58,289 nucleotides of DNA, from contig JBBDYD010000136.1 in the NCBI GenBank assembly GCA_040901865.1, forward strand, positions 29,912 through 88,200. Reading direction: 5' to 3'. Under the pieces are notes generated by a model that saw only the letters and a program-made list of their open reading frames with translations, made no database searches and was not told the origin of the DNA. Shown in pieces: positions 1-57,153 of this stretch. The stretch's first letter is position 1. Every line of letters starts with the position of its first letter. This DNA is from Bacteroidota bacterium (GTDB lineage Bacteria > Bacteroidota > Ignavibacteria > UBA10030). The translations under genes and the position numbers were made by a program.

Positions 1-70
1 GATATTGGATATTGCTGTCATCCGGTAAAAAGAAATATCCAACGCCGAACGTCCAACACCCAATTTCAAA
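1..70. repeat. Truncated copy of a palindromic intergenic repeat element (inverted copy of 56831-56900)
   Basis: Reverse complement of 1-70 matches 56831-56900 at 65 of 70 positions by hand alignment. Internal perfect 9-bp stem TTGGATATT (5-13) / AATATCCAA (34-42). The element runs off the left window edge. Confidence 0.8.
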
Positions 71-90
71 TGAAAAAGTGTGGACAAATC

Positions 91-462
91 CTACCCGTAC
101 CTCTTATCTTCCCTCAGCCCCTCATCCACCGGACGCACCTCGATACTCCCGAACCGCGCCGACGGCCACTTGGAGGCGATGCTGATGGCCTCGTTGAGAT
201 CCCGTGCATTGATCAGGAAGAATCCGCCCAGCGTTTCTTTTGTCTCCGCAAACGGACCGTCCGTAATCGAAAGTTTGCCGCTGCGCACCCGAACCGTGCT
301 GGCTGTTCGGACGCTTTGCAGCGGCTCGGCAGAAATGAGATGACCTTTTTTTTGGAGGTCAGCCACGTAATCCAGAGTTTCCTTTCGAAGGACTTCCCAA
401 TCGGATTTGGACAAAGCATTCAATATGCTTTCTTCCTCGAAAGCCATACAAAGGTATTTCAT
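91..462 (-). CDS. YciI family (DGPF domain) protein
   Basis: 123 aa. ITDGPFAETKE motif typical of YciI/DGPF proteins. AAGGAGA Shine-Dalgarno just upstream of the ATG at 462. Confidence 0.8.
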   Translation of the reverse strand: MKYLCMAFEEESILNALSKSDWEVLRKETLDYVADLQKKGHLISAEPLQSVRTASTVRVRSGKLSITDGPFAETKETLGGFFLINARDLNEAISIASKWPSARFGSIEVRPVDEGLREDKRYG

Positions 463-516
463 TTGTTCTCCTTTGATTCAAAAACCGAAAAACGGCCGGG
501 GCGTCGATGCGTTGAT

Positions 517-903
517 CTACCGCGCCCGCTTTTTCATCCGTACTTCGTTTTCGGACAATCTTGCTTTGACGATTTTTTTGATGAGCGTATCTGGCAGGGG
601 CCTGTCGGGGGTAAACCGGATGGTCGATCCGGAAACATCGAACTTCTTAAACTCCTCTTTGAATTGCGCCTGCAGTTTCCGTGTTGCCGGGAAAATACTG
701 CAGTGGTTCGTGAAGGCCGCAAACGCGATCAGCATTCCATTCTGCTTATAAGTCGGAATCTGGTAACTGATGACCTCTGTCGCTTTTGGTGCTGCCGCCC
801 GGATGCTTTTGCGGAGGTTCTTGAGGGCAGATCGGGCCTCTTTCGGGACGCCGGCAAGGTACTCGTCGACGGTTGCAGGAACGTTTCTCGAGCTCTGTTT
901 CAT
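517..903 (-). CDS. DUF1801 (YdhG-like) domain protein
   Basis: 128 aa. The pattern VDEYL...ISYQIPTYK...FAAFTNHCSIFP resembles the DUF1801 family. ATGA start/stop overlap with the upstream YciI gene. Confidence 0.6.
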   Translation of the reverse strand: MKQSSRNVPATVDEYLAGVPKEARSALKNLRKSIRAAAPKATEVISYQIPTYKQNGMLIAFAAFTNHCSIFPATRKLQAQFKEEFKKFDVSGSTIRFTPDRPLPDTLIKKIVKARLSENEVRMKKRAR

Positions 904-1295
904 CTTTGCGGTTCTCCTTCAGCGATGTGTTTCGAGAGCTCATTGATCTGTTCATCTGCAGGCCGGATCTCCCAGCTTCCGCCCATTTTCACGGAGGGAT
1001 GATTTGACATGAGGCGGATGGCCTGGTCGAGATTCTCTGCCTCGAGGATCATGATTCCGCCCAATTGCTCTTTGGTCTCTGCAAACGGGCCGTCGGTGAT
1101 GGAGACTTTGCCGTTCCGATACCGGATCGTGGTGGCGGTTTTGGAGTTCTGGAGTGCCTCACCGCCTACCATATGCCCGTTCTTGCGCAGTTCGACATCG
1201 TAAACGAGGCACTTCTCGATAAAAGCCTTCTGGTCGGTTTCCGACATTCCATCCCACATTCCTTCTTCAATAAATCCAAGACAGATGTATTTCAT
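900..1295 (-). CDS. YciI family (DGPF domain) protein
   Basis: SITDGPFAETKEQLGG motif. Start placed at internal MKYICLGF (parallel to MKYLCMAF of the 91-462 paralog). The ORF extends to 1340, so the start is uncertain. Confidence 0.75.
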   Translation of the reverse strand: MKYICLGFIEEGMWDGMSETDQKAFIEKCLVYDVELRKNGHMVGGEALQNSKTATTIRYRNGKVSITDGPFAETKEQLGGIMILEAENLDQAIRLMSNHPSVKMGGSWEIRPADEQINELSKHIAEGEPQR

Positions 1296-1453
1296 GAGGG
1301 TCCTTTGCTTCGTCATTCGAAATTCGCCCGCCCCTTCCATGCTTTATTTGGGCCGGGGATATTCGACATTTCTTCTTCGTACTAGCCGAAGTGGTGCAGT
1401 TGTTGTTCGGTCTCCATCCACTCTGATGAAACAATTATTGTTCCCATTTCTTC

Positions 1454-2056
1454 TTAAGCTCCAATAGTACCCGTCTTGACTTTTCCAGCCCGCTTGTAAT
1501 TGGCAAAAATCACACCATTTGGCGTAACCAAACTGTTTATTAATGTAAAGGCCGCAGGAATGGTACCCTCACCAAACAAACGCTTGCCCGCACCGAGCGT
1601 AACTGGGAACGTTTTGAGCCACAGTTCATCGACCAGATCATGTTTGAGTAGTGTCTGAATCAAGTTACCACTGCCGTGAACTTGAATATCAGAACCTTCT
1701 GAATTCTTGAGCTTTTTGATGTCATCGACGCTTTTAAGAAAAACTGAGTTTTGCCAATCTGACTTGTCCATAGTATTACTCATGACATATTTGGTGACAT
1801 CATTGACACCCGGCCAATAGTCTGCATGTTCAGGCCAGTAGGCAGCAAAAATCTCGAATGTTTTCCTGCCCAAAAGAAGATCTGCAGACTTCATTTGTTT
1901 TTCCATGATCTCACCAGCCGCTTTGTCAGCTTCGGCAAAATACGGCGCAGTCCAGCCACCATATTTAAAGCCACCTGACGTATCTTCGTCGGGTCCACCA
2001 GGTGCCTGCATGACCCCGTCTAATGTAATAAATGATAAAACGATTATGTTTCTCAT
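1454..2056 (-). CDS. Dihydrofolate reductase-like (RibD C-terminal domain) protein
   Basis: 200 aa. N-terminus IIVLSFITLDGVMQAPGGP and the C-terminal pattern are typical of the RibD_C/YwjB family. Two hand-counted 60-nt lines gave 24/60 and 21/60 GC, clearly below the neighbours. Confidence 0.7.
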   Translation of the reverse strand: MRNIIVLSFITLDGVMQAPGGPDEDTSGGFKYGGWTAPYFAEADKAAGEIMEKQMKSADLLLGRKTFEIFAAYWPEHADYWPGVNDVTKYVMSNTMDKSDWQNSVFLKSVDDIKKLKNSEGSDIQVHGSGNLIQTLLKHDLVDELWLKTFPVTLGAGKRLFGEGTIPAAFTLINSLVTPNGVIFANYKRAGKVKTGTIGA

Positions 2057-2466
2057 ATTATTTCACTTCCTCTTAATTGGACGTTTCTCTTTACTCTCAT
2101 CCAACCTCCAAGCCAAGTGCACGGCAGTGCCGTGACGGCGAGGAGGATCGGGTACCAATGATGCGGCGTCAGTTCCCAGCTGAAGATGACGCCGGCAGTG
2201 CCTGCGACAGTGCCGACGATCCCGAGGATCACTGCATAACGCATCGGCCGGTCAGGGGCAAGCCACGCGGTGACATATCCTCCGGCAACGGTGTACATAC
2301 AACGATAGACCAGCGCCCAAAAAAGCATGAACCCCGTGTAGGCGGCCGGATCCGTCTGCGGCGGAAAGATCCCGGCCGAGTCAAGAATGAAATCCGTCAC
2401 GACCGACAAAACGACGACCGTGACAAACCCGGCCAGAACAGCTCCAACGCTCTTCAAAGTATGCAT
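2053..2466 (-). CDS. Small integral membrane protein, unknown function
   Basis: About four hydrophobic helices. Start moved to MHTLKS, which is preceded by AGGAGA. 4-bp overlap with the downstream gene. Confidence 0.55.
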   Translation of the reverse strand: MHTLKSVGAVLAGFVTVVVLSVVTDFILDSAGIFPPQTDPAAYTGFMLFWALVYRCMYTVAGGYVTAWLAPDRPMRYAVILGIVGTVAGTAGVIFSWELTPHHWYPILLAVTALPCTWLGGWMRVKRNVQLRGSEII

Positions 2467-2517
2467 TTTATTCTCTCCTGCTGATCGTGACATTGGATTG
2501 TGAAACGTCCAAGGGGT

Positions 2518-3087
2518 TCATGATGATCTTTTGTAATTCAGACAAACAACACCTGAAGGGAAAGTATGGCTTGAGATCAAGGTTACGTGTGATACTTCGT
2601 TGATGTTCCTGAACAACGGAATTCCCCTTCCCAGTAGTATCGGATTGACAAACAGCCAGTACTCGTCGATCAGGTCCAGTTGCATCAGTGAATGTGCCGC
2701 ACCGGGACTGCCAAACATAATGATGTCTTTCCCTTTGCGGTTTTTCAGATCATTGATCTTCTTCAAAAGGTCATTATGGATGATGGTTGTTCGGGGCAAA
2801 CTCCGTCCCTGCAGTGACTTCGACAAGACAACTTTGTCAACATTGTTGTACCAACGCGAATGCTCAACGTCATGCCGGGTGGCATTTGGTTGATCCGCGG
2901 CTGTTGGCCAGTATCCCTCCATCATTTCATAGGTGACGCGGCCGTAAAGTGCCGTATCAGCCGCATTCGTTCGCCGGCCGGCAAAATCAAAGATCTCTTC
3001 CTCGACATGAATCCAATCCATTTCGCCATTTGGTCCCGCCACAAAACCGTCGAGCGACGCGTGCATGAACAAAACAAGTTTTCTCAT
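2518..3087 (-). CDS. Dihydrofolate reductase-like (RibD C-terminal domain) protein
   Basis: 189 aa. MRKLVLFMHASLDGFVAGPNGEMDW... is a typical RibD_C family N-terminus. Confidence 0.7.
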   Translation of the reverse strand: MRKLVLFMHASLDGFVAGPNGEMDWIHVEEEIFDFAGRRTNAADTALYGRVTYEMMEGYWPTAADQPNATRHDVEHSRWYNNVDKVVLSKSLQGRSLPRTTIIHNDLLKKINDLKNRKGKDIIMFGSPGAAHSLMQLDLIDEYWLFVNPILLGRGIPLFRNINEVSHVTLISSHTFPSGVVCLNYKRSS

Positions 3088-3137
3088 TTTTTTATCTCCT
3101 GACCTGCCGAAGAAATGCCCCTAAAGAGGCACCGTGC

Positions 3138-3554
3138 TTAGCTGATCTTCCGGGATTCAAGAGTGTGGAATCGATCTATCGATTCACTTTTGCCGAAATC
3201 CTCGAGTTCGAACAGTTGCCGGACTTCGATCTCGCAATCTCTTCCGTCACCGACAGGGTTGGGGAACCGCTTCGACCAATCCAGCGCTTCCTGCTTCGAA
3301 TTCACTTTGATGATGGTGTAGCCGGCGATGAGTTCTTTTATCTCTGTGAAAGGGCCATCCGTGACAACCCGTTTGGTTCCGGAGTACTTGATTCGCCAAC
3401 CCTTGGAACTTGCCTGAAGACCCGAGGCGTCGACGAGGACGCCGGCTTTTGCCAATTCTTCGTGGTAGGCGGCCATTTCTGCGAAGCGTTTCTCCTCGGG
3501 CATGGCACCCGCTTCTGAATCTTCCGAGGCTTTCACGACGATCATGAATCGCAT
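3138..3554 (-). CDS. YciI family (DGPF domain) protein
   Basis: 138 aa. VTDGPFTEIKELIAGY motif. AGGAGA RBS upstream. Confidence 0.8.
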   Translation of the reverse strand: MRFMIVVKASEDSEAGAMPEEKRFAEMAAYHEELAKAGVLVDASGLQASSKGWRIKYSGTKRVVTDGPFTEIKELIAGYTIIKVNSKQEALDWSKRFPNPVGDGRDCEIEVRQLFELEDFGKSESIDRFHTLESRKIS

Positions 3555-3569
3555 AGGATCATCTCCTGA

Positions 3570-3596
3570 CTGTTTACTGTTCTCTGTTTACTGTTC
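3570..3596. repeat. Direct repeat CTGTTTACTGTTC x2 (14-nt period, two heptads per unit)
   Basis: Identical 13-mers at 3570-3582 and 3584-3596, immediately upstream of the YciI gene RBS on the minus strand. Confidence 0.85.
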
Positions 3597-3791
3597 CTCA
3601 TGAATCTCATGTGCTAAGTTGTCGTTCGCAGGCCGTCAAAATCGACAGCCCAAAGCCTCATTATTTTGTTGATGAAAATCACGAAATTGGATCAAAACAG
3701 GAGAATTCATGGTTTTTTGAAAGGACAATCGATCTAACAAAAGAAAGATGTGAAACCAGGTTGGTGATAGGCTGAGTTCAGACGGAGGGAT

Positions 3792-5048
3792 CTAGTGCTT
3801 CAACCCCGCCATCCTTCCCTCCAAAAACCTCCGCTCCGGCTCCTGCTGTGTAAGGGATAGGGCTTTCTCGTAGGAGGCTCGCGCGTCCGCGGTTTTTCCA
3901 AGCCGGCGACATAATTCCGCTCGTGCAGAATGCGCAAGGTGATAATCAGCCAGGTTACCACGTGCGAAAATGGCATCAATCAGGTCAAGCCCGGCTTGAG
4001 GTCCGTCACGCATCGCTATGGCAACGGCGCGATTAAGATCGATCACAGGCGACGGTTCCGCCTGCAGGAGCAGATCATACAATCCCACAATCTGCACCCA
4101 ATCCGTCTTATCGGCGGTCTCCGCTTCTGCATGAACAGCCGCAATGGCCGCCTGAATTGTGTAAGGCCCAAAACGCCGCGACGCAAGCGCACGTTCAACG
4201 AGACCAATCCCCTCCTTAATTCGCTCACGGTCCCAGAGCCCTCGATCCTGATCCTCAAGCAATATCAGATCTCCGTCAGCCGATGTTCGTGCCGCGCGGC
4301 GTGATTCCTGCAACAACATGAGCCCAAGCAATCCAAGCACCTCCGGTTCGGGGAGCAATTCCGTCAATAACCGTCCAAGGCGGATTGCCTCTTCGGAAAT
4401 ATCCGATCGCGTCAGGGATTGGCCGGATGTTGCAGAATATCCCTCGTTGAAGACCAGGTAAATGACCTGAAGGACCGTGTCGAGACGACCGGGGAGTTCG
4501 GATTGCGACGGTACCTGATACGGAATGCGTGCATCGCGGATTTTCGACTTAGCGCGAACAATGCGTTGGGCGAGCGTGGGCGGAGTCGTCAGGAACGCAC
4601 GGGCGATCTCTTCAGTCGTGAGTCCGCAGACTTCGCGGAGGGTGAGGGCAACACGCGCTTCGGGTGATAACGCCGGGTGACAGCAGGTGAAGATCAGGCG
4701 GAGCTGATCGTCCCCGACGGGATCGTCGATCCGGTCGGCGGGATCTTCGAACTCTGACGCAAGCTGATCGGCAACCGTCTCGAGCGAAGAGTCGAACCGC
4801 GCCCGTCTCCGGATGCCGTCGATGGCTTTGAACCGGCCCGTGGACACCAGCCAGGCACGCGGATTCGCCGGGATGCCTTCGTTGGGCCATTGTTCGGCCG
4901 CAGCGGCAAAGGCGTCATGCAGAGCATCCTCCGCAACGTCAAAGTCGCCCAGGAGGCGGATAAGCGTCGCCAGGATCCGACGTGATTCCGAGGTATACAG
5001 CCGGTCGAGAAGGCTTGCGACATCGCCTGATCCCAAGGGCGTTTCCAT
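3792..5048 (-). CDS. ECF-type RNA polymerase sigma-70 family factor with long C-terminal extension
   Basis: 418 aa. Region 2-like segment LHDAFAAAAEQWP. Region 4-like segment LTLREVCGLTTEEIARAF. A helical C-terminal extension of about 200 aa. This sigma type is classically encoded next to YciI/DGPF genes. Confidence 0.8.
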   Translation of the reverse strand: METPLGSGDVASLLDRLYTSESRRILATLIRLLGDFDVAEDALHDAFAAAAEQWPNEGIPANPRAWLVSTGRFKAIDGIRRRARFDSSLETVADQLASEFEDPADRIDDPVGDDQLRLIFTCCHPALSPEARVALTLREVCGLTTEEIARAFLTTPPTLAQRIVRAKSKIRDARIPYQVPSQSELPGRLDTVLQVIYLVFNEGYSATSGQSLTRSDISEEAIRLGRLLTELLPEPEVLGLLGLMLLQESRRAARTSADGDLILLEDQDRGLWDRERIKEGIGLVERALASRRFGPYTIQAAIAAVHAEAETADKTDWVQIVGLYDLLLQAEPSPVIDLNRAVAIAMRDGPQAGLDLIDAIFARGNLADYHLAHSARAELCRRLGKTADARASYEKALSLTQQEPERRFLEGRMAGLKH

Positions 5049-17309: not shown

Positions 17310-19130
17310 ATGAGGACTTTCTACGTTGTTATTCTTCTCACGTGTTCTGTCGCGATGGTCTTCGCCCAGAGTGCGGGAGATTATCGTTCGGTTGCGAGCG
17401 GCAACTGGAGCGTCTCAGGAACCTGGCAGACGTTTAACGGCTCGATCTGGGGCGCGGCAGCATCGCCTCCCACCGGATCCGAAGTGATCACCGTACTAGC
17501 TGCGGACTCGGTGTACGTCGATGTTGCAGTGACGATCACCGACACGCTGAAGCACCAGGGAATCGTTGCCGGAGGAGTGAATCTGACGGTCGGCAACGGC
17601 GGCGTGTACCAGTACGATCGGGATGCCGGGTCACTTCCGGCGGGTACAACCTGGGCAACAGGGTCGACGTACTATGTTACCGGAATTACCGCGACGGCCC
17701 CTGCGAACAGAAATCAGAATTTCTACAACATCGTTCTCAACACCCCAAACATGGCTTCGAATCGGGATCTGGGTTTCGACAGTACCACCGTTTCCGGAAA
17801 TATCACCGTCCTGGCATCGGGAACCGGTTCGATCCGATGGCAAATGGGTGCTCCGCTGGCTGGTGATACAATCATCGCATGGCTTTTCGGTGACATCATC
17901 CAGCAAGGGGGACAATTCTCTTCGAACGGAACAAGCAACGCAAACAGCCATGTTGTGATCCATCACTATGGCAACACGACCGTTACGGGTGGCAATTTCT
18001 CCGTCAGCCGCGGCTCGCAGGGAGGTACCGGCAGCGTGCGATGGTATCTGTACGGCGACTTCTCCATGTCGAATGCAACAACGCAGAATTCGAATGTCTC
18101 CGGGGCGAGGTTCATTTTTGCAGCGCAAGGCACGCAGACACTCGAGCTGGGCAGCGGAAATACGCTCACCGCCTTCCCGATGGAGATCGACAGCGGAACA
18201 ACGGTTGACATGGGGTTGAGCAAGTTACGAGGGAGCGGAAGGTTTGTCGTTCATGACGGGGCATACCTGGCAACAGCGGAACCGGGCGGAATCGACAGTG
18301 CAGTAAGCGTCAGCGGGACTCCGTTCACCTTGAGCAAGAAGGCTGGATACTTTTTCAATGGAGTGGTGAACCAGGTAACGGGGACAAGAATGCCGGATAC
18401 GGTCTCTGTTCTTGTCACTGACAACCCGGACACGCTTACCCTTAGTGACACCGTTGCGGTTACCAACGCACTCATACTGAGGAGCGGTGTGCTGAACAAT
18501 ACTCATCCGTTTACGCTCGGACCCGATGCATCTCTTGGTACCGGTCATGCTAACGGGATTGCCGGCATTGCGGATCAGCTTGTTGTACCGTTTGATCCCT
18601 CCAATGTGACGAGATTCGATTTTGTCGGATTGGCCAACCAGGTGACGAGTGCGGCAATGCCGGATACCATTGTCAACCTGACGATCGATAATCCGGATAC
18701 CGTCTTTCTTTCGCTGGCCACGCATATCACGGGGATTCTCAGACTGAAGGCCGGCATTTTTGATAATACGATCCCATTCACCCTCGGGCCGAGTGCCACC
18801 ATTTCGTATGAAGGCGGTATGCTGAGAATCGCAACCTCGGCAGGAAACGCGGAGAATGTGATTCCGGAATCGTTCTTTGTCGAACAAAACTATCCGAATC
18901 CGTTCAACCCCGCGACGACCATTCGCTACGGAATATCCGAAGCATCCAACGTTTCGGCTGTTGTGTACAACATGCTTGGTCAGAAGGTCACCACCGTGTT
19001 CGAAGGCAGAAAAGAGCCGGGAACGCATCAACTGCGGTTCAACGCTTCCAATCTGCCCTCCGGCGTGTACCTGCTCCGCATCCAGGCCGGAAGCAACTCG
19101 ATGGTCAGGCGGATGGTGTTGATGAAATAG
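17310..19130 (+). CDS. Secreted repeat protein with T9SS C-terminal sorting domain, unknown function
   Basis: Start at MRTFYVV, preceded by AGGAGG. Signal peptide. Two tandem units of about 85-90 aa (NQVT...MPDT...DNPDT...PFTLGP). C-terminus EQNYPNPFNPATTIRY...GVYLLRI. Confidence 0.7.
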   Translation: MRTFYVVILLTCSVAMVFAQSAGDYRSVASGNWSVSGTWQTFNGSIWGAAASPPTGSEVITVLAADSVYVDVAVTITDTLKHQGIVAGGVNLTVGNGGVYQYDRDAGSLPAGTTWATGSTYYVTGITATAPANRNQNFYNIVLNTPNMASNRDLGFDSTTVSGNITVLASGTGSIRWQMGAPLAGDTIIAWLFGDIIQQGGQFSSNGTSNANSHVVIHHYGNTTVTGGNFSVSRGSQGGTGSVRWYLYGDFSMSNATTQNSNVSGARFIFAAQGTQTLELGSGNTLTAFPMEIDSGTTVDMGLSKLRGSGRFVVHDGAYLATAEPGGIDSAVSVSGTPFTLSKKAGYFFNGVVNQVTGTRMPDTVSVLVTDNPDTLTLSDTVAVTNALILRSGVLNNTHPFTLGPDASLGTGHANGIAGIADQLVVPFDPSNVTRFDFVGLANQVTSAAMPDTIVNLTIDNPDTVFLSLATHITGILRLKAGIFDNTIPFTLGPSATISYEGGMLRIATSAGNAENVIPESFFVEQNYPNPFNPATTIRYGISEASNVSAVVYNMLGQKVTTVFEGRKEPGTHQLRFNASNLPSGVYLLRIQAGSNSMVRRMVLMK

Positions 19131-19177
19131 TGAAGAGTGAAGAGTGAAGAGTGAAGAGTAAAGAGTAAAAAGAAAAG
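19129..19177. repeat. Heptanucleotide tandem array (AGTGAAG)4 decaying to AGTAAAG AGTAAAA AGAAAAG
   Basis: Seven consecutive 7-nt units fill the whole intergenic gap between the stop at 19130 and the ATG at 19179. Confidence 0.9.
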
Positions 19178-21475: not shown

Positions 21476-21501
21476 CAGTAGGAGGAGATTGGAAGCCGGA
21501 G

Positions 21502-21571
21502 GTCAGAGGTCAGAAGTCAGAAGTCAGAGGTCAGAAGTCAGAGGTCAGAAGTCAGAGGTCAGAAGTCGGAA
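21502..21571. repeat. Heptanucleotide tandem array (RGTCAGA)10
   Basis: Ten consecutive units of GGTCAGA/AGTCAGA, with the last unit AGTCGGA. Lies between the LacI stop and the receptor start. Confidence 0.95.
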
Positions 21572-39346: not shown

Positions 39347-39460
39347 TTGGTGTAAGGTAATAGTTACTAGTTATTAGGTATTGGTGGATTGCTGTTCACC
39401 GTTTACCGTTCACGGTTTACTATTCACTACTCTTCACTCTTTACTCTTCACCCTTCACCA
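39347..39460. repeat. Two-armed heptanucleotide array (about 16 units)
   Basis: AGGTAAT AGTTACT AGTTATT AGGTATT ... CACCGTT TACCGTT CACGGTT TACTATT CACTACT CTTCACT CTTTACT CTTCACC CTTCACC. The right arm is the reverse complement of the AGTGAAG/AGTAAAG family seen at 19129. Confidence 0.9.
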
Positions 39461-39473
39461 TTGAGATACTCAT

Positions 39474-40973: not shown

Positions 40974-40990
40974 TCTCCGCTTCGCTCCGA

Positions 40991-41027
40991 CAATTCGACA
41001 TTTGACATTCGACATTCGAAATTCACC
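40991..41027. repeat. Heptanucleotide tandem array (ACATTCG-like, about 5 units)
   Basis: CAATTCG ACATTTG ACATTCG ACATTCG AAATTCA, between the convergent gene ends of gnd and the 41030-41455 gene. Confidence 0.85.
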
Positions 41028-51677: not shown

Positions 51678-52943
51678 ATGGATTGTTTCGCATACAAGAA
51701 TAACGAACTGCATTGTGAGGATGTGCCTCTTACAGAACTTCAAAAGGAGTTTGGCAGTCCTCTGTACGTGTACAGCTTGTCACAACTCGTCGCGAACTAT
51801 CAGGCCGTTGACGCAGTCGTTGCCGATCTTGACCACGTCACCTGCTATGCTCTCAAGGCAAATGCGAATCATTACCTTCTGAAAGTACTGGCGGAACATG
51901 GCGCCGGCGCAGATGTGGTATCAGCCGGGGAATTATATCTTGCTCTGAAGGCCGGATTCTCTCCGGAGAAGATTGTGTTTGCAGGAGTTGGAAAACGCGA
52001 AGATGAAATCGAGTATGCCCTAAAGGAAGGCATATTCTGTTTTAATGCCGAGTCCGAGCAGGAGCTCCAGTTGATTTCCCTGGCAGCCCTCCGGCTTCAA
52101 AAGAAAGCACGCGTTGCGTTGAGAATTAATCCGGACATCGATGCCGAAAGCCATCCGTACATTTCCACCGGCCTCAAACAACACAAGTTTGGCATTCCGG
52201 CTGATCGTGCAATGGAGGCATTCAAGTTCGCCGTCTCGTTGTCGAACCTTGAAGTCTCGGGTGTGCACATTCACATCGGATCTCAGATCACAAAGATCGA
52301 GCCGTTTGTTGCAGCCGCGTCATTCCTCGTTCGATTTGTCCGGGAACTCCGCCAGCAGGGAATTCCCATCACCCACGTGGACATCGGGGGTGGATTTGGA
52401 ACCCGGTATGTGAACGCGCTGTCGCATGAAGGTCTCCCGGTCGAAGAGGGCGATCAAGCGGAGGTCCAGTCTCCGGAGGAATCGCTCCGTGCCATGGCGC
52501 CGGCCCTCAAGGAGACCGGCTGTTCGGTTTGGCTCGAACCGGGGCGGGCGATCATTGCCAATGCAGGGATCTTGTTGACCCAAGTGCTGTATGTGAAGGA
52601 AAATGGGACTAAGAAGTTCATTATTGTCGATGCAGGGATGAATGATTTGTTGCGCCCAAGTTTGTATAATGCCTATCACCAGATTGTTCCGGTCAAGCTG
52701 GAGACTTACGAGCATGAACGGGTGGATGTGGTGGGGCCGGTGTGTGAGACAGGAGATTTCTTCGCGCGCGACCGCATGGTCTCGAAACTCAAGCCGCAGG
52801 AACTGCTGGCGATCCTCACGACGGGGGCGTACGGGTTTGTGAATGCATCAAACTATAATGCCCGTCCCCGGCCGGCGGAAGTTCTGGTGAACGGTGATCG
52901 CGTGCGCGTGATTCGCCCGAGGCAAACGCTGGAAGAACTCTGA
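51678..52943 (+). CDS. lysA: Diaminopimelate decarboxylase
   Basis: 421 aa. YALKAN, HIGSQI, GGG.G, EPGR and CE.GD blocks of the PLP-dependent group IV decarboxylases. Confidence 0.9.
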   Translation: MDCFAYKNNELHCEDVPLTELQKEFGSPLYVYSLSQLVANYQAVDAVVADLDHVTCYALKANANHYLLKVLAEHGAGADVVSAGELYLALKAGFSPEKIVFAGVGKREDEIEYALKEGIFCFNAESEQELQLISLAALRLQKKARVALRINPDIDAESHPYISTGLKQHKFGIPADRAMEAFKFAVSLSNLEVSGVHIHIGSQITKIEPFVAAASFLVRFVRELRQQGIPITHVDIGGGFGTRYVNALSHEGLPVEEGDQAEVQSPEESLRAMAPALKETGCSVWLEPGRAIIANAGILLTQVLYVKENGTKKFIIVDAGMNDLLRPSLYNAYHQIVPVKLETYEHERVDVVGPVCETGDFFARDRMVSKLKPQELLAILTTGAYGFVNASNYNARPRPAEVLVNGDRVRVIRPRQTLEEL

Positions 52944-52958
52944 TTCCCGAGGAGTCAA

Positions 52959-53951
52959 ATGAAGCTGCATGATATTGCCATCGTGGGCGCCACCGGTCTC
53001 GTCGGCCGAACCATGGTGCGCGTGTTGATGGAGCGCAAGTTCCCCGTGGACCGCCTTGTGCTCCTGGCTTCGGAGCGATCCGTGGGGAAGGAGCTGGATT
53101 TCAACGGAACGGCAGTCCCGGTTCAGGTCCTTGCCCCGGATAAATTCCGCCACATTGAATATGCACTATTTTCCGCAGGCGCGATGGTCAGCAAGGAGTA
53201 CGCCCCCATGGCTGTCCGGTCGGGAGCGGTGGTGATCGACAACAGCAGCGCATTCAGGATGGAGGACGATGTCCCATTGATTGTCCCCGAAGTGAATCGC
53301 CGCCAGGCATTTAAACACAAAGGAATTATTGCCAATCCCAATTGTTCCACCATTCAACTCGTTGTCGCCCTCAAACCGCTTCATGACCGTTTCAAAATCA
53401 GGCGCGTCGTCGTGTCCACATATCAATCCGTGACCGGCGCCGGACAGCAGGGCGTGGACCAGCTCCGGGAAGAACTTGCACAGCGCGTGCCCGCGACAAT
53501 GAAATTTCAGCACCGTATCGCGTTCAACACTTTGCCTCACATCGACCTCTTTTTTGATGACGGGTATTCGAAAGAGGAATACAAAATGATCAACGAGACT
53601 TCGAAAATCATGGGCGAGAAAATCAAGCTGACGGCCACATGCGTGCGAGTGCCGGCTATTGGCGGTCACGGTGAATCGATCAACATCGAATTCCAAAAGA
53701 AATCATCCGTTGAGGAAATTCGTGAGGTCCTTCGTACTGCACCGGGAATTGTTGTTCAGGACGACCCCAAAACAGGCGTCTATCCCATGCCGATCACGGC
53801 GGAGGGAAAAGACGATGTGTTTGTTGGAAGGATCCGTAAGGATGATTCGGTGCCGAGCGGAGTGAATCTGTGGATTGTGGCGGACAACGTGCGGAAGGGA
53901 GCAGCGACGAATGCGGTGCAGATTGCTGAAGTGCTGGCATTGGGGAAATAG
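52959..53951 (+). CDS. asd: Aspartate-semialdehyde dehydrogenase
   Basis: 330 aa. VGATG.VG, NPNCSTI (catalytic Cys) and VRVP...GH blocks. Confidence 0.92.
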   Translation: MKLHDIAIVGATGLVGRTMVRVLMERKFPVDRLVLLASERSVGKELDFNGTAVPVQVLAPDKFRHIEYALFSAGAMVSKEYAPMAVRSGAVVIDNSSAFRMEDDVPLIVPEVNRRQAFKHKGIIANPNCSTIQLVVALKPLHDRFKIRRVVVSTYQSVTGAGQQGVDQLREELAQRVPATMKFQHRIAFNTLPHIDLFFDDGYSKEEYKMINETSKIMGEKIKLTATCVRVPAIGGHGESINIEFQKKSSVEEIREVLRTAPGIVVQDDPKTGVYPMPITAEGKDDVFVGRIRKDDSVPSGVNLWIVADNVRKGAATNAVQIAEVLALGK

Positions 53952-54083
53952 TGAAGGGTAAAGGGTGAAGAGTGAAGAGTGAGAAAGGCCGTAAGAAGTG
54001 AAAAGTGAAATGTGAAACGTGAAAAGTTGTTGAGCCGGGTTCTGCATCATTTCACATTTCACATCTTACATTTTACTGGAGTG
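53951..54083. repeat. Heptanucleotide array arranged as inverted arms (GTGAARN units, then ATTTCAC units)
   Basis: About 19 phased 7-nt units. Perfect 13-bp inverted repeat GTGAAATGTGAAA (54005-54017) / TTTCACATTTCAC (54050-54062). Confidence 0.9.
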
Positions 54084-54104
54084 CTTTGAAACGAGGTAAA
54101 TGCC

Positions 54105-54977
54105 ATGAGACAAATATTGCTTTACATATTGATTGCTCTGTTTGCAATTGCCGGTTGCGGTAAGGGAAAGCCATCCACCGAACTCGTGACCTTTCAGGTT
54201 CGTGGTGTCGTGGTTTCGGTGAATCTGGAAAAACAGCGAATTGTCCTGGACCATGAGGAGATTCCGAATTACATGAAAGCCATGACCATGCCGTTCAAGG
54301 TCAAGGATTCCACGCTCCTCGCGAAAGTTCAGCCGGGAGATACGGTTGAGGGCGTTCTTGCGGTTTCCCGAACGGAAAGCTGGCTTGAGTCGTTGACTGT
54401 TGTCGGATCAGGTGAAGAGCCGGAATCGGCATCTTCCGCGGCTGATAATATCTTTCGGCGCATCTACAAGGTTGGCAGTCGCATTCCGGAGTATTCCTTC
54501 GTCAATCAGGAGGGAAAACGGGTGAAACTCAGCGATTTCCGGGGGAAGGCCATTGCGATCACGTTCATCTATTCCCGCTGCCCGCTTCCGGATTTTTGCA
54601 TACAAATGAGCAACCACTTTGCCCGGGTTCAACGATCCCTGAAGAAAGAACCCCTGCTTGCCAACAAGTGGCACCTCCTGACGATCAGCTTTGATCCCGA
54701 ATTCGACAAGCCGGCTGTTCTCAAGAGGTACGGCAAGGCGTACGACGCCGATTTTTCCACGTGGGATTTTGTAACCGACAGTCTCAGTACCATCAGAGAG
54801 CTGGCTGACGGATTGGAACTTGTGATGGAAGACGATGAGGGGGGATTGATTGCGCACAATCTTCGCACGGCGGTGATCGATCCGCACGGAATCCTGGTGC
54901 AAGTGTATAAAGGAAACGAATGGACGGCACAGGAACTTGAAGATGCCATTCGGGCAGCCATTGTGAAAGCCGGTTAA
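54105..54977 (+). CDS. SCO1/SenC family copper chaperone with N-terminal CusF-like domain
   Basis: Lipoprotein signal (IAGCG). CusF-like segment VVSVNLEKQRIVLDHEEIP.YM.AMTMPF. Thioredoxin-fold CPLPDFC (CxxxC) motif. Confidence 0.8.
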   Translation: MRQILLYILIALFAIAGCGKGKPSTELVTFQVRGVVVSVNLEKQRIVLDHEEIPNYMKAMTMPFKVKDSTLLAKVQPGDTVEGVLAVSRTESWLESLTVVGSGEEPESASSAADNIFRRIYKVGSRIPEYSFVNQEGKRVKLSDFRGKAIAITFIYSRCPLPDFCIQMSNHFARVQRSLKKEPLLANKWHLLTISFDPEFDKPAVLKRYGKAYDADFSTWDFVTDSLSTIRELADGLELVMEDDEGGLIAHNLRTAVIDPHGILVQVYKGNEWTAQELEDAIRAAIVKAG

Positions 54978-54979
54978 TA

Positions 54980-56815
54980 GTGAAAAAAGACTTCCGACAA
55001 CGGATCAAAGAGGGCCCCATTCTGTGTGACGGAGCCATGGGGACACTCCTCGATCTGTACGAATATCCCGATCTCCCGCACGAAATCCAGAACATCCGTA
55101 ATCCTGAAATCGTTGAGCGCATTCACCGCGAATATATCGAGGCCGGAGCGGAGATCATTCAAACCAACACGTTTTCGGGGAACCGGCTCAGACTCGCGCA
55201 GTTCCATTTTGAAGACCAGGTCCGCGAAATAAACAAGGCAGGGGTGGAAATCGCCCGACGGGCGGCTGGTGACGGCGTCTATGTTGCGGGGTCCGTAGGG
55301 CCTACCGGGAAGCTCCTTGAGCCGATCGGCAAGTTGAAGATCGCCGATGCGCGTGAAGTGTTCCGCGAACAGATCGCGATCCTGGTTGATGCCGGTATTG
55401 ATGTGCTCATGTTGGAGACATTTGTTAGTCTCACCGAACTTGATGCAGCACTCGATGCGGTGAGGGATCTTAAGGTAAAGATTCCGGTTGTTGCCCAGAA
55501 GGCGTTTCCGGAGGACGGAGCGATTCTCTCGGGCACGTTTCCGGTTGAAGTGGCAGAACATATGATCAGCCGCGGCGTGGATGTGGTTGGTGCGAATTGC
55601 ACCGTGGGTCCTCAGCGCATGTTCAGCATCATCCGCAACATGTACAAAGACGGCGTGTTCATGAGTGCCCAGCCCGCCGCCGGTATTCCCACTCTGCTCG
55701 ATGGACGATCGATCTACCATACATCACCGGAATACCTTGCCCAATACGCACGCGAACTTCTGCAGGCAGGTGTGACCATCATCGGAGCGTGCTGTGGGTC
55801 CACACCGGCACATATCCGTGCCATGAAGCGTGTCATGGATGAATTCACCGGAACTCCTTCCGCGATCCGTCCGCCGTCCGTGCGGGAGCGAAAGGCCGAG
55901 AGCCCGAAGCCTCCGGTACTTGAACCGGGCGGCCATTCCTGGTCGGCGTTTGCCGGTAATATCGGAAAGAAATTCCTGACGACCGTCGAGCTCGATATTC
56001 CGCGGGGTCTCGACATGTCTTCGTTGATCGAGGGTGCGCGATATCTGCGCAGTTACGGCATTGATGCTATAAACATCACCGACGGGGCGCGGGCACGCCT
56101 GCGCCTGAGCCCGATCGCCATCAGCTACCAGATCCAGTCTCAGGTCGGCATCGAAGCGATGACGCATCTTGCAACCCGGGACCGGAACATGATCAGCCTG
56201 CAAAGCGAGCTGATGAGCGCGCATACCTTTGGTCTCCGCAACATCCTCGCCATCACGGGCGATCCCACGAGCATCGGCGATTACCCACAGGCAACGTCTG
56301 TGTTCGATATAGATTCTTCGGGCCTTATCCGGGCGGCGAAATCCATGAACGAAGGCAAGGATCTCATGGGCAACACCATCGAGGCAAGGACCTCGTTTCT
56401 TGTGGCATGCGCTGCCAACCCCATGGCCGATAACATGGATAAGGAAATCGCCAAAATGGAAAAGAAGGCCGCCGCCGGCGTTGATATCGTTTTCACCCAG
56501 CCGATCTACGAACTCCGCACGCTTGAACAGTTCCTGAAACGAATCGAATCGTGGAAGCTTCCGGTGATGGTGGGTGTTTTACCCCTGAGAGGTTTCAAGC
56601 ACGCCGAATTTTTGCATAATGAGATTCCCGGAATGATCATTCCCGAATCAATTCGCGAAAAACTCCGCAATGCCGGCGACCGGGCTTCTACAATAGGAGT
56701 GGAAAGCGCCATCGATTTTTTGCGGAAGGCAAAACCGATGGTCGCGGGCGCCTATCTCATGCCTCCCTTCAAGAAGTACGACATGGTGCCACAGATTATG
56801 GAAGCGATCGGGTAA
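54980..56815 (+). CDS. Bifunctional homocysteine S-methyltransferase / methylenetetrahydrofolate reductase (YitJ-like)
   Basis: 611 aa. N-terminal Hcy-binding domain (DGAMGT, NCTVGP, GACCGSTP) fused to a MetF-like TIM barrel (ITDGARA, ITGDP). GTG start. Confidence 0.85.
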   Translation: MKKDFRQRIKEGPILCDGAMGTLLDLYEYPDLPHEIQNIRNPEIVERIHREYIEAGAEIIQTNTFSGNRLRLAQFHFEDQVREINKAGVEIARRAAGDGVYVAGSVGPTGKLLEPIGKLKIADAREVFREQIAILVDAGIDVLMLETFVSLTELDAALDAVRDLKVKIPVVAQKAFPEDGAILSGTFPVEVAEHMISRGVDVVGANCTVGPQRMFSIIRNMYKDGVFMSAQPAAGIPTLLDGRSIYHTSPEYLAQYARELLQAGVTIIGACCGSTPAHIRAMKRVMDEFTGTPSAIRPPSVRERKAESPKPPVLEPGGHSWSAFAGNIGKKFLTTVELDIPRGLDMSSLIEGARYLRSYGIDAINITDGARARLRLSPIAISYQIQSQVGIEAMTHLATRDRNMISLQSELMSAHTFGLRNILAITGDPTSIGDYPQATSVFDIDSSGLIRAAKSMNEGKDLMGNTIEARTSFLVACAANPMADNMDKEIAKMEKKAAAGVDIVFTQPIYELRTLEQFLKRIESWKLPVMVGVLPLRGFKHAEFLHNEIPGMIIPESIREKLRNAGDRASTIGVESAIDFLRKAKPMVAGAYLMPPFKKYDMVPQIMEAIG

Positions 56816-56817
56816 AA

Positions 56818-56966
56818 GTAGGAAACCAAATTCGAAATTGGGTGTTGGATGTTCGGCGTTGGATATTTCTTTTTACTGGATAGCAGCAATATCCAATATC
56901 GAACGTCCAACGGTAGGAAACCAAATTCGACATTGGGAGTTGGGCATTCGGCGTTGGATATTTCTT
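56818..56966. repeat. Tandem pair of an intergenic element with a 95-nt period; the first copy contains a long imperfect palindrome
   Basis: GTAGGAAACCAAATTCGA.ATTGGG.GTTGG..TTCGGCGTTGGATATTTCTTT occurs at 56818 and again at 56913. The first copy folds TGTTGGATGTTCGGCGTTGGATATT against AATATCCAATATCGAACGTCCAACGG. 7-nt phasing (GTTGGAT GTTCGGC GTTGGAT). More heptads (CAATTCG CAATCCG) follow at about 57051-57080. Confidence 0.85.
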
Positions 56967-57153
56967 TCCGTCTCAATCCGTTCTTTTTCTGTCCTTTTCC
57001 GTTCCTATCCGTGTTCCATTATCAAGTTTCATCAATCCGTTCAGGATTCCCAATTTCGCAATTCGCAATCCGAATTCCACCTTGATTTTTCCCCAACTCT
57101 TCTGTACCATGCCATCAAGTTCTTTGCTGTGAATTTCTTTGCTCCTTCGAGGG

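What the first reader, a model, noticed from the sequence alone, without database searches (positions are those of the whole stretch)
1..57090. Family of intergenic tandem arrays with strict 7-nt periodicity at operon boundaries
At least eight intergenic regions contain short arrays phased every 7 nt with related but non-identical units: TGTTTAC/TGTTCTC (3570), AGTGAAG (19129), RGTCAGA (21502), AGTTACT...CTTCACT (39347), ACATTCG (40991), GTGAARN/ATTTCAC (53951), GTTGGAT/GTTCGGC and CAATTCG (56818-57080), and the copy at 1-70.

They fill the gaps between convergent or co-directional transcription units. They are never seen inside credible coding sequence and are frequently arranged as inverted arms able to form long hairpins.

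Heptanucleotide STRR repeats are classically known from heterocystous cyanobacteria. I am not aware of a description for this kind of organism. The period is shared while the sequence varies. This suggests a generating mechanism (slippage or a repeat-specific enzyme), or selection on structure such as terminators, insulators or protein-binding phasing, rather than spread of a single mobile sequence.
Basis: seen in the sequence. Interest (0 to 1): 0.62.

Follow-up and report, generated by a model that had tools for sequence, protein, structure and literature searches.

The report
Seven-base repeat arrays between genes
The short runs of 7-base repeats between the genes of this uncultured Ignavibacteria-like bacterium are real; they are a new example of a repeat type long known in cyanobacteria and many other bacteria, and comparison with relatives shows that they change length by whole units while the unit sequence stays more conserved than neutral DNA.

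Summary
In the 58-kb window only period 7 (and its multiple 14) gives tandem arrays: 8 arrays against 0.09 expected, and none at any other period. All of them lie in the roughly 2.4 kb of intergenic DNA.

The organism is not a cyanobacterium. It is an Ignavibacteria-like member of the FCB group, with T9SS genes, a pectin utilisation locus and 54% GC.

- Most belong to two families: F1 (GTRAANN, at four loci) and F3 (NATTSGN).
- F3 includes a dispersed ~80-nt hairpin element with three copies.
- Only two or three loci form hairpins. The rest are unstructured single arrays, G-rich on the sense strand just behind stop codons.

Relatives show the dynamics.
- The same gaps carry F1 arrays in three related metagenomic genomes. 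Lengths differ by 7 or 21 nt.
- Consensus units match at 26 of 28 positions, although four-fold sites are near saturation (0.43-0.48 identical).
- More distant relatives have no arrays.

My reading is slippage-driven heptanucleotide repeats of the STRR/LSSR kind, kept by some sequence-specific constraint. Any function is probably in intercistronic RNA and is unproven.

Heptamer excess in bacteria is already published, so this is a new member of a known kind.

The parts
1..71 (-). Hairpin element, copy C, cut by the window edge. It lies about 20 nt 3' of the stop of the YCII gene at 91-462 (-). The G-rich arm (GTTGGAC GTTCGGC GTTGGAT) comes first on the sense strand. Family F3.
   Evidence: I1: 93% complementary to 56830-56900; the minus strand folds at -22.3 kcal/mol, z -3.0. 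establish the gene map.
3569..3598 (-). Array A1: GTAAACA GAGAACA GTAAACA on the sense (-) strand. It ends 14 nt upstream of the start of YCII gene 3138-3554 (-). Family F1. It has a perfect 14-nt super-period.
   Evidence: (period 14, 100% match).
19125..19177 (+). Array A2: (GTGAAGA)x4 (GTAAAGA) (GTAAAAA). It starts inside the TAG stop of the T9SS cargo gene and ends 2 nt before the GH88 ATG, filling the whole 48-nt gap. The RNA is unstructured. Family F1.
   Evidence: score 30. MFE -1.35 kcal/mol; orthologous arrays in L166 and L167.
21492..21571 (+). Array A3: about 10 units alternating GGTCAGA and AGTCAGA (14-nt super-unit, 94% match). It begins 17 nt after the LacI-family stop and ends about 85-100 nt before the start of the TonB-dependent receptor (21654 or 21672). 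There is no partner arm in the window. Family F2.
   Evidence: no structure, z +0.6; a 93%-identical relative has a gap shorter by 84 nt.
39347..39390 (+). Array A4: TAATAGT TACTAGT TATTAGG TATTGGT (GTTAYTA type). It starts 3 nt after the PfkB stop and is in phase with A5 and A6.
   Evidence: lag-7 identity 0.61 over the whole 129-nt gap.
39394..39427 (-). Array A5: GTGAATA GTAAACC GTGAACG GTAAACG GTGAACA, read on the minus strand. It is C-rich on the sense strand. Family F1.
   Evidence: orthologous TGTTCAC units in L163.
39429..39462 (-). Array A6: GTGAAGG GTGAAGA GTAAAGA GTGAAGA, read on the minus strand. It ends about 12 nt before the 6PGD ATG and is the reverse complement of A2 and A8. 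It is 21 nt (3 units) longer than the orthologous array in L163.
   Evidence: I3-I6.
40988..41027 (-). Array A7: about 5 units of GTCGAAT or GTCAAAT on the minus strand (ACATTCG on the plus strand). It lies 3-5 nt behind the stop of the TerB gene (41030-41455, -), in the convergent gap with 6PGD. A plain GC hairpin sits at 40952-40975. Family F3.
   Evidence: D6 and D12..
53947..53984 (+). Array A8: GTGAAGG GTAAAGG GTGAAGA GTGAAGA GTGAGAA. It starts at the TAG stop of asd. Family F1.
   Evidence: a depth spike in four metagenomes shows the sequence is multi-copy.
53991..54076 (+). Heptamer-armed hairpin. The 5' arm is A9 (GTGAAAN x4-5, 53991-54027), followed by a ~20-32-nt spacer, then the 3' arm A10 (NTTTCAC x4, 54048-54076). 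It ends about 30 nt before the SCO1-like gene's ATG.
   Evidence: MFE -34.9 kcal/mol, z -2.4. I14; one 7-nt unit is missing at 54048 in a strain contig of run X5.
56816..56912 (+). Hairpin element, copy A, directly 3' of the MetH-like gene stop (56815). The arms GTTGGAT GTTCGGC GTTGGAT ATT and AATATCC AATATCG AACGTCC AAC enclose a 20-nt loop. Family F3.
   Evidence: MFE -35.1 kcal/mol, z -4.4, 0 of 200 shuffles as stable. D3 and I1.
56913..56975 (+). Tandem half-copy B of the hairpin element. It has the left flank and the G-rich arm only, and is 84% identical to copy A.
   Evidence: D3 and I2.
57046..57077 (+). Weak array A13: CAATTTC GCAATTC GCAATCC GAATTCC. Family F3, C-rich on the sense strand. 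It ends 62 nt before the GHL10 gene start.
   Evidence: (score 34, 77% match).

Best explanation
The arrays are a clade-specific set of heptanucleotide simple-sequence repeats of the same kind as cyanobacterial STRRs and the 'long SSRs' of Mrazek et al.

Shown:
- They occupy about a quarter of the intergenic DNA.
- They fall into a few unit families: F1 GTRAANN, F2 GTCAGAR, F3 NATTSGN and F4 GTTAYTA.
- They are inherited at the same gene junctions in related genomes.
- They change length in steps of 7, 14 or 21 nt, as replication slippage or unequal pairing would produce.
- They are absent from coding DNA. A 7-nt step would shift the reading frame.
- F1 unit sequences stay far more alike between relatives than four-fold degenerate sites do. 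Positions G1, T2 and A4 are invariant, position 3 is only G or A, and positions 6-7 are free.

Inferred:
- Slippage alone does not explain the conservation. Some sequence-specific constraint acts on the units, either a function or a sequence-specific way of propagation.
- The most likely role is in the polycistronic mRNA. The C-poor, purine-rich array that directly follows a stop codon would act as a structure-free spacer leading to the next start codon.
- Where a complementary C-rich array follows, the two close the whole stop-to-start gap into one long hairpin (53991-54076, 56843-56912, and the L166 gap). This would be a transcript-stability or processing stem of the REP type, not a classical terminator.
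- The F3 hairpin is also a dispersed element that has been copied to at least three places.
For: Period specificity and restriction to intergenic DNA come.

Unit-wise length change:
- A 7-nt deletion at 54048 in run X5.
- Run X2 replaces 190 nt of the asd gap with 246 nt, a difference of 56 = 8x7.
- The window array before 6PGD is exactly 21 nt longer than its orthologue in L163.
- Arrays A1, A3, A5 and A6 have 14-nt super-units.

Vertical inheritance:
- The gap between the T9SS cargo gene and GH88 carries F1 arrays starting at the stop codon in the window, L166 and L167.
- The gap before 6PGD carries F1 arrays in the window and L163.

Conservation beyond neutral:
- Four-fold sites of the flanking genes are 0.43-0.48 identical.
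- Orthologous consensus units are 26 of 28 identical, P about 6e-7.

Clade restriction:
- There are no arrays in 82 kb of syntenic relatives L164, L165, L168 and L169.
- Labelled Ignavibacteria loci have almost none.
- F1 triple units occur in 2.3 Mb of other loci only in L166, L167 and two Paludibacter loci.

Hairpins are shown and, for L166, (z -2.7). In L166 the first G-rich array pairs with the last C-rich array. The orthologous asd gap of L082 has a plain GC hairpin at the same place.

Orientation:
- The G-rich strand is the sense strand directly behind stop codons at 7 independent junctions here.
- In other phyla the count is 14 against 5 behind stops and 22 against 8 overall.

Published background: heptamers are the commonest long SSR class, with slippage as the proposed cause (PMC4692102, PMC4679880).
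Against: - No transcript data exist for this organism, so every RNA-level role is inference.
- The gaps of relatives without arrays (L082, L164, L165, L168, L169) show that the arrays are dispensable.
- Orientation relative to transcription is not uniform. F1 is G-rich on the sense strand in A1, A2, A8 and A9 but C-rich in A5 and A6. A single RNA-level function therefore cannot cover all arrays.
- The G-rich-on-sense bias may simply follow the general purine loading of sense strands.
- The conservation test rests on four array pairs, and I chose the unit phases.
- Strain data come from low-coverage Logan contigs, which break inside arrays.
Confidence: 0.6

Rival explanations
1. The arrays are purely neutral by-products of replication slippage. 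On this view a 7-nt register is favoured by the polymerase (the idea of Mrazek et al. 2007), the arrays have no function, and they persist only because slippage keeps renewing them.
For: - Arrays are missing from orthologous gaps of relatives, and nothing but a plain hairpin or a short spacer takes their place.
- Copy number and architecture differ freely between relatives: 48, 70 and 191 nt at one junction.
- Period 7 is also the commonest period in 1.39 Mb of unrelated loci, with 27 arrays against 0-8 for other periods.
- The slippage explanation is the published one (PMC4692102).
Against: - Consensus units at orthologous arrays are 26 of 28 identical while four-fold sites are at 0.43-0.48.
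- Variation among 22 unit types is confined to positions 3 (G or A), 6 and 7.
- Arrays show a strand bias relative to genes.
- Drift of a neutral array consensus should proceed at about the neutral rate.
Confidence: 0.22
2. The arrays are arms, or decayed arms, of small mobile hairpin cassettes. Candidates are REP- or MITE-like elements, or gene-less copies of cassettes that carry a PF05635 '23S rRNA intervening-sequence' four-helix-bundle gene. On this view they are spread by transposition, not grown in place.
For: - One ~80-nt hairpin whose arms are heptamer-phased is present three times in the window at 84-93% identity. Each copy sits just 3' of a gene and in the same orientation relative to that gene.
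- In an unrelated Bacteroidota locus fetched for another purpose, a PF05635 gene (E 1.5e-33) lies between inverted octamer arrays (L015).
- Earlier agents of this scan reported the same link in other phyla. I treat that as a lead only.
Against: - No PF05635 gene was found among the Pfam-scanned ORFs or by a six-frame motif search.
- Five of eight loci are solitary direct arrays with no partner arm.
- Arrays sit at orthologous junctions with the same boundary at the stop codon in three genomes. This indicates descent and not repeated insertion.
- The second PF05635 gene in the background (L056) has only a 3-unit stub beside it.
- The rest of this genome could not be searched.
Confidence: 0.15
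3. The arrays are DNA-level binding sites for a regulator or a nucleoid protein, acting as operator, insulator or phasing elements that control neighbouring promoters.
For: - A3 lies between a LacI-family regulator gene and a SusC-like receptor gene, where a promoter is expected.
- The conserved 5-nt core with two free positions looks like a recognition motif.
- In Nostoc, deleting heptamer repeats changed the response of the recO promoter to LexA and NtcA in reporter assays (bioRxiv 10.1101/2022.06.06.494920).
Against: - A 7-bp spacing puts successive sites on different faces of the helix.
- Arrays also fill gaps with no room for a promoter, such as the 48-nt gap from stop to start.
- No arrays occur in the two divergent, promoter-bearing gaps of the window, 5049-5217 and 49855-49955.
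- Copy number is not conserved.
Confidence: 0.08

Closest known systems
STRR (short tandemly repeated repetitive) heptanucleotides of heterocystous cyanobacteria (Mazel et al. 1990; cited from my own knowledge and via PMC4692102)
   Same: Both have 7-nt units in short tandem arrays at many intergenic sites, a few unit families per genome, and no known function. A1's unit AAACAGT is one base from STRR3 CAACAGT (my recollection of the STRR units).
   Different: - The host is an Ignavibacteria-like FCB bacterium.
- The unit families differ (GTRAANN, NATTSGN, GTCAGAR).
- Arrays are shorter, at 4-10 units.
- Here they are traced across orthologous gaps of relatives.
Heptameric long simple-sequence repeats of prokaryotes (Mrazek, Guo and Shah 2007, as summarised in PMC4692102 and PMC4679880)
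   Same: - Period 7 is the over-represented class.
- The repeats are intergenic.
- Their phylogenetic distribution is patchy.
- Slippage is proposed as the source.
My 2.26-Mb background sample gives a similar picture. Period 7 leads in the first set (27 arrays in 1.39 Mb) but not in the second (4 in 0.87 Mb).
   Different: That work is a census. It does not report conservation of unit sequence at orthologous sites, nor the position of the arrays next to stop codons.
GGGAATC and GGGGAYT heptamer repeats of Xanthomonas and Nostoc (Rehm et al. 2015, PMC4692102)
   Same: - Both are intergenic heptamer arrays, some arranged as inverted pairs.
[quoted passage not shown]
   Different: Those repeats are G-tract units able to form G-quadruplexes. 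The units here have no G-runs, so G4 formation is not an option.
TAACTGA direct repeats of Beggiatoaceae, cyanobacteria and five Bacteroidetes (MacGregor 2015, PMC4679880)
   Same: - Both are heptamer arrays, mostly intergenic, in a fixed orientation and within a few nucleotides of start codons.
- A post-transcriptional role has been proposed for the TAACTGA repeats.
- Both occur in the Bacteroidota lineage in the broad sense.
   Different: - There is one dominant unit there, against several families here.
- The arrays here abut stop codons at least as often as start codons.
- Some arrays here form hairpins.
REP/BIME-type intergenic palindromes of Enterobacteria
   Same: The F3 hairpin element is an imperfect palindrome of about 80 nt. 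It is multi-copy, lies 3' of genes in a fixed orientation, and has no T-run. This matches the pattern of REP stems that stabilise mRNA.
   Different: - Its arms are internally 7-nt periodic.
- No RAYT transposase could be looked for.
- Copy number in the genome is unknown.

Membership tests
Cyanobacterial STRR | Tandem arrays of a 7-nt unit | tested here: met
Cyanobacterial STRR | Dispersed at many intergenic sites of the genome | tested here: inconclusive
   Met within the window, at 8 loci in about 2.4 kb of intergenic DNA. Other windows of the same genome carry only unverified first-reader notes of heptamer arrays.
Cyanobacterial STRR | Canonical units STRR1-3 (CCCCAGT, TTGGTCA, CAACAGT; from my own knowledge) in a heterocystous cyanobacterium | tested here: not met
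   The units here are GTRAANN, GTCAGAR, NATTSGN and GTTAYTA. The gene content is that of the FCB group or Ignavibacteria: T9SS, PorV and SusC-like genes. The best 6PGD hits are Melioribacter and Ignavibacteriales MAGs.
Prokaryotic heptameric LSSR (Mrazek 2007) | Tandem repeats of 5-11-nt units, longer than chance allows, mainly non-coding, with period 7 dominant | tested here: met
   In the background loci 41 of 46 arrays are outside ORFs.
Prokaryotic heptameric LSSR (Mrazek 2007) | Length polymorphism by whole units (slippage) | tested here: met
   A 7-nt deletion, a 21-nt difference at an orthologous array and 14-nt super-units. Population-level read data were not available.
Intrinsic (Rho-independent) terminator | GC-rich stem-loop followed directly by a T-run | tested here: not met
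   The consensus scan of 38300-58289 flags none of the array regions. The sequences after both hairpins lack a T-run.
REP/BIME or MITE-like dispersed palindrome | Multi-copy imperfect palindrome in intergenic DNA with a stable fold | tested here: met
   This applies to the F3 hairpin only. It has three copies at 84-93% identity and z scores of -4.4 and -3.0.
REP/BIME or MITE-like dispersed palindrome | A cognate transposase (RAYT) in the genome, or target-site duplications | not testable with these tools
No target-site duplications are evident around copies A to C.
PF05635 (23S rRNA IVS protein) cassette with repeat arms (a lead from earlier agents) | A small four-helix-bundle gene between inverted hepta- or octamer arrays | tested here: not met
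   No PF05635 gene was found among the Pfam-scanned ORFs of the window or by a six-frame motif search. The architecture itself was reproduced in the unrelated locus L015. The rest of this genome could not be searched.
G-quadruplex heptamer repeats (Rehm 2015) | Units with G3-5 tracts | tested here: not met
   The unit sequences contain no G-runs.

The most novel reading that the evidence does not exclude
The heptad arrays would be sequence-specifically maintained cis-elements, not passive microsatellites. A conserved GTRAA core repeated in a 7-nt register is kept at the same gene junctions over saturating synonymous divergence. It lies on the sense strand directly behind stop codons and is optionally closed into a stop-to-start hairpin by a complementary array. 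Taken together, this would point to a lineage-specific factor that reads a 7-nt register. That factor could be an RNA- or single-strand-binding protein, or the machinery of a hairpin cassette. On this reading the arrays form an operon-punctuation system, and its logic could also explain STRRs in cyanobacteria.
Probability: 0.15. Interest if true: 0.7.

Novelty: new member of a known kind. Interest (0 to 1): 0.38.

Why it matters
Heptanucleotide arrays have been known since 1990 and are the commonest long simple repeat in bacteria, yet nobody knows what they do.

This locus does not answer that. It does offer a compact and tractable case, for three reasons:
- It comes from a small clade in which the same gene junctions exist with arrays of different length, with a heptamer-armed hairpin, with a plain hairpin, or with nothing.
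- The unit core is conserved well beyond the neutral level.
- The arrays have a regular position right behind stop codons.

These three points turn the question of junk against function into a comparison that can be tested with reporter constructs and metatranscriptomes.

There is also a practical point. The arrays break short-read assemblies: Logan contigs end inside them. They also create spurious long ORFs, for example 21321-24641 and 56838-57233.

Tried and rejected
Closed or empty routes:
The genome-wide period-7 census, the search for PF05635 or RAYT genes in this genome, and the test of orientation against replication could therefore not be done.
- No RNA run holds the locus. Terminator or processing activity is untested.
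The best hit was 80% identical.
- The metagenome-contig scan with asd gave one close relative only, L082.
- Two JGI contigs of the closest relatives (P0003, and P0241 with a 93%-identical LacI) were listed without DNA.
- A look-up of ORF 70-1002 found nothing, because that ORF is spurious.

Weak data:
- Laying Logan contigs of 10 soil and sediment runs gave only fragmentary low-coverage pieces. One clean 7-nt deletion and one replaced gap were usable.

Ideas rejected:
- Assembly artefact. Homologous arrays occur in independent assemblies.
- G-quadruplex. The units have no G-runs.
- Classical intrinsic terminators. There is no T-run and the scan does not flag the arrays.
- A known RNA family. 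There are no Rfam hits in the window.
- Coding or peptide repeats. The arrays lie outside the confirmed genes.
- A 'three-frame stop-codon array' as a general rule. 21 of 22 F1 unit types carry TGA or TAA on the sense strand. However, only 6 of 19 arrays behind stop codons in other phyla do so (counted by eye from the list), which is about the chance level.
- 'C-rich arrays precede start codons' as a general rule. It holds here, but not in the background set, where the count is 8 G-rich against 3 C-rich.
- Shine-Dalgarno replacement. 16 of 49 genes have an SD-like 4-mer against 10% by chance, so the organism uses SD in part and nothing follows from this.

Full report
**1. What the window is**

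Pfam scans of the long ORFs show a compact region that is about 96% coding. Its contents are:
- a minus-strand block of YCII, DUF1801 and RibD_C genes with an ECF-type sigma factor (91-5048);
- a pectin and hexuronate utilisation locus on the plus strand (5218-39344), described below;
- 6-phosphogluconate dehydrogenase (39474-40928);
- a minus-strand block (41030-49854) with a sigma-54 two-component pair and a GcvH/NrfD/4Fe-4S cluster;
- a plus-strand housekeeping block (lysA, asd, SCO1-like, MetH-like, GHL10).

The pectin locus carries pectate-lyase-like and GH28 genes, two TonB receptors with CarboxypepD_reg domains, a PorV-like barrel, three proteins with T9SS sorting domains, GH88, a LacI regulator, DUF4861, UxaC, KduD, KduI, UxaE, TRAP DctPQM and PfkB.

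The T9SS, PorV and SusC-type genes place the organism in the FCB group. The best 6PGD matches are Melioribacter, Ignavibacteriales and Bacteroidota MAGs at 79-88% identity. Earlier agents working on other windows of the same genome also called it Ignavibacteria-like. GC content is about 54%. It is not a cyanobacterium.

ORF 70-1002 (+) is spurious. The real genes there are on the minus strand.

**2.

- A simple run finder over periods 2-21 finds six arrays of period 7, one of period 14 and nothing else in the whole window.
- Pooled intergenic DNA has lag-7 identity 0.367 and lag-14 identity 0.349, against about 0.26 for other lags. Coding DNA shows only the period-3 signal.
- Dinucleotide-preserving shuffles of the intergenic pieces give 0.09 period-7 arrays, against 8 observed.

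Arrays plus the hairpin element cover roughly a quarter of the ~2.4 kb of intergenic DNA. This figure is my sum of the part coordinates. The stricter run finder gives 13.5%.

No array lies inside a confirmed gene. A2 and A8 begin inside the upstream TAG stop codon.

**3. Anatomy**

On the purine-rich strand most arrays reduce to a few unit families.
- F1, GTRAANN: A1 at 3569-3598 (-), A2 at 19125-19177 (+), A5 and A6 at 39394-39462 (-), A8 and A9 at 53947-54027 (+), and A10 at 54048-54076 (-).
- F2, GTCAGAR: A3 at 21492-21571, ten units, the longest and purest array.
- F3, NATTSGN: A7 at 40988-41027, A13 at 57046-57077, and the arms of an ~80-nt hairpin element. That element is present at 56816-56912, as a half copy at 56913-56975, and inverted at 1-71 (D3, D6, I1, I2).
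- F4, GTTAYTA: A4 at 39347-39390.

Several arrays (A1, A3, A5, A6) have a 14-nt super-unit that matches better than the 7-nt unit. This is what two-unit slippage produces after one unit has mutated.

Only two places fold significantly better than shuffles, plus the cut copy at the left edge:
- 53991-54076, with arms of GTGAAAN and NTTTCAC, z -2.4;
- 56843-56912, z -4.4;
- the copy at the left edge, z -3.0 on the minus strand.

A2 (MFE -1.35 kcal/mol) and A3 (z +0.6) are essentially unstructured. A1, A4-A6 and A7 fold no better than shuffled controls (z -0.6 to -1.4).

None of the array regions matches the consensus for an intrinsic terminator. There is no Rfam hit in the window.

**4. Position relative to genes**

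Arrays occur in seven of the co-directional or convergent gaps. They occur in neither of the two divergent gaps, 5049-5217 and 49855-49955.

Directly behind stop codons, the sense strand always carries the G-rich version:
- A2 and A8, 0 nt from the stop;
- A4, 3 nt;
- A7 behind TerB, 3-5 nt;
- A3, 17 nt;
- hairpin copies A and C, 15-27 nt.

C-rich arrays (A6, A10, A13) lie on the start-codon side. A1 is the exception: it is G-rich and 14 nt before a start.

In independent loci from other phyla, the G-rich-on-sense bias behind stops is also seen, 14 against 5. The C-rich-before-start rule is not seen there, 8 G-rich against 3 C-rich. The bias may therefore be no more than the general purine loading of sense strands.

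**5. Relatives**

This is the most informative part.

Gap between the T9SS cargo gene and GH88:
- The window has (GTGAAGA)4(GTAAAGA)(GTAAAAA) in 48 nt.
- L166 (GH88 81% identical) has 191 nt, made of five GTGAAGG/GTAAAGA units starting at the same stop codon, six GTGAACC/GTAAACA units, a GC hairpin, then three inverted units (CTTTCAC ATTTCAC ATGTCAC) before the start.
- In L166 the RNA fold pairs the first array with the last, closing the whole gap (z -2.7).
- L167 (83% identical) has (GTAAACA)3 GTGAATA GTGAACA in 70 nt.
- The more distant syntenic loci L168 and L169 have 61-nt and 11-nt gaps and no arrays anywhere in 42 kb.

Gap between PfkB and 6PGD:
- L163 (6PGD 88% identical) has TGTTCAC x2 ... 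CACTCTTCAC aligned to A5 and A6. The window is longer by exactly 21 nt, or three units.
- L164 and L165 (86% identical) have no arrays in 40 kb.

Downstream of 6PGD, L163 has GATTGCG AATTGGG GAATGTG GATTGCG plus a GC hairpin. This is F3 again, arranged differently from the window.

Gap between asd and the SCO1-like gene:
- L082 (88% identical, synteny kept) has a gap of the same size.
- It has a plain GC hairpin and no period-7 signal.

Strain-level contigs:
- One unit (7 nt) is missing at 54048 in run X5.
- Run X2 has the asd gap replaced by a stretch 56 nt (8x7) longer.
- Four metagenomes show large depth spikes over the F1 arrays, so the sequence is multi-copy.

A 93%-identical LacI relative has a downstream gap 84 nt (12x7) shorter than the gap holding A3. 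This rests on gene calls only, because no DNA was served.

**6. Neutral or constrained?**

Four-fold degenerate sites of the flanking genes are only 0.43-0.48 identical between the window and L163, L166 and L167. That is near saturation.

The consensus units of the orthologous arrays are nevertheless 26 of 28 identical, with a binomial P of about 6e-7 at p = 0.48.

Among 22 distinct F1 unit types:
- positions 1, 2 and 4 are invariant (G, T, A);
- position 3 is only G or A;
- position 5 is mostly A;
- positions 6 and 7 vary freely.

Slippage with drift should let the consensus wander at about the neutral rate, so something sequence-specific holds the core. The caveats are that only four pairs were compared, that I chose the phases, and that assigning arrays to F1 already presupposes the core.

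I checked one tempting reading. TRA is a stop codon, and a 7-nt period puts it in all three frames. 21 of 22 F1 unit types carry TGA or TAA on the sense strand. However, only 6 of 19 arrays behind stops in other phyla do so (counted by eye from the list), which is about the chance level. I do not adopt this reading.

**7. How common is this elsewhere?**
- In 1.39 Mb of 80 loci from many phyla, period 7 gives 27 arrays, period 8 gives 8, and other periods give 0-6.
- In a further 0.87 Mb, period 7 gives 4.
- Together this is about 14 arrays per Mb, against about 100 per Mb in the window.
- Loci labelled Ignavibacteria (GC 32-44%) have almost none.

The trait is patchy and clade-specific, as published. 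Heptamers are the most abundant long SSR class, scattered over phyla, with polymerase slippage as the proposed cause (Mrazek et al. 2007, as summarised in PMC4692102 and PMC4679880).
- Rehm et al. (PMC4692102) describe heptamer arrays between the same genes in two Xanthomonas species, with extensive variation in length and sequence, some as inverted pairs.
- MacGregor (PMC4679880) describes TAACTGA arrays just upstream of start codons, including in five Bacteroidetes.
- A Nostoc preprint reports modest effects of heptamer repeats on promoter reporters (10.1101/2022.06.06.494920).

**8. The lead from earlier agents**

Several follow-up reports of this scan propose that heptamer arrays are arms of cassettes carrying a PF05635 gene. 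I treated this as a lead to test.
- No such gene was found among the Pfam-scanned ORFs of the window or by a six-frame motif search.
- In the background loci there are two PF05635 genes. One (L015 488-844, E 1.5e-33) sits between inverted octamer arrays. The other (L056) has only a three-unit heptamer stub beside it.

The architecture therefore exists elsewhere. In this window, most arrays are solitary, are inherited at fixed junctions and change by whole units. That fits growth in place better than insertion. The F3 hairpin is the one component that clearly behaves as a dispersed element.

**9. Verdict**

It is wrong on three points:
- novelty of the phenomenon;
- sequence diversity;
- the share of hairpins.

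My best explanation is a clade-specific set of slippage-prone heptanucleotide repeat families under a sequence-specific constraint. Any role probably lies in intercistronic RNA, as an unstructured purine-rich spacer behind stop codons or as long hairpins closing the gap where a complementary array is present.

The function is inferred, not shown.

Noticed in passing
window 70-1002 (+) against 91-462, 517-903 and 900-1340 (-): The 310-aa plus-strand ORF is spurious. The minus strand encodes YCII, DUF1801 and YCII genes. The hairpin element at 1-71 therefore lies 3' of a gene, not upstream of one.
   Followed up: yes
window 21654-26412; L168 and L169: The syntenic pectin loci of more distant relatives lack the second TonB receptor and the T9SS protein between LacI and DUF4861. 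Array A3 sits at the left edge of this extra block. A 93%-identical LacI relative has a downstream gap 84 nt (12x7) shorter, judged from gene calls only.
   Followed up: partly
window 19126-19167 and 39421-39462: A2 and A6 are 86% complementary inverted arrays. They bracket the 20-kb hexuronate gene block and could in principle mediate its inversion.
   Followed up: no
L015 394-993; L056 18309-18725: In L015 a PF05635 (23S rRNA IVS protein) gene is flanked by inverted octamer arrays, (GGTACGGC)n and (GGTACGAC)n. L015 is a Bacteroidetes MAG locus fetched for another reason. A second PF05635 gene, in L056, has only a 3-unit heptamer stub beside it.
   Followed up: partly
L001 start (window ~21539); L162 end (window ~38): Logan contigs of the source run end inside array A3 and inside the hairpin element. 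These repeats break k-mer assemblies.
   Followed up: partly
window 45229-48827 (-): Two 263-aa and 272-aa proteins with a GcvH domain flank an NrfD-like membrane protein and a 4Fe-4S dicluster protein. This combination is unusual and I did not examine it.
   Followed up: no
window 21321-21671 and 56838-57233 (+): Because F2 and F3 arrays lack stop codons on the plus strand, long spurious ORF extensions run through them. The TonB receptor ORF opens at 21321 but most likely starts at 21654 or 21672. There is also a 131-aa ORF over the hairpin element.
   Followed up: partly
window 56977-57006: A T/C-rich stretch with period of about 10 (TCCGTTCCTTT-like, TRF score 39) lies between the hairpin half-copy and A13. 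It is the only non-7 periodicity in an intergenic gap.
   Followed up: no
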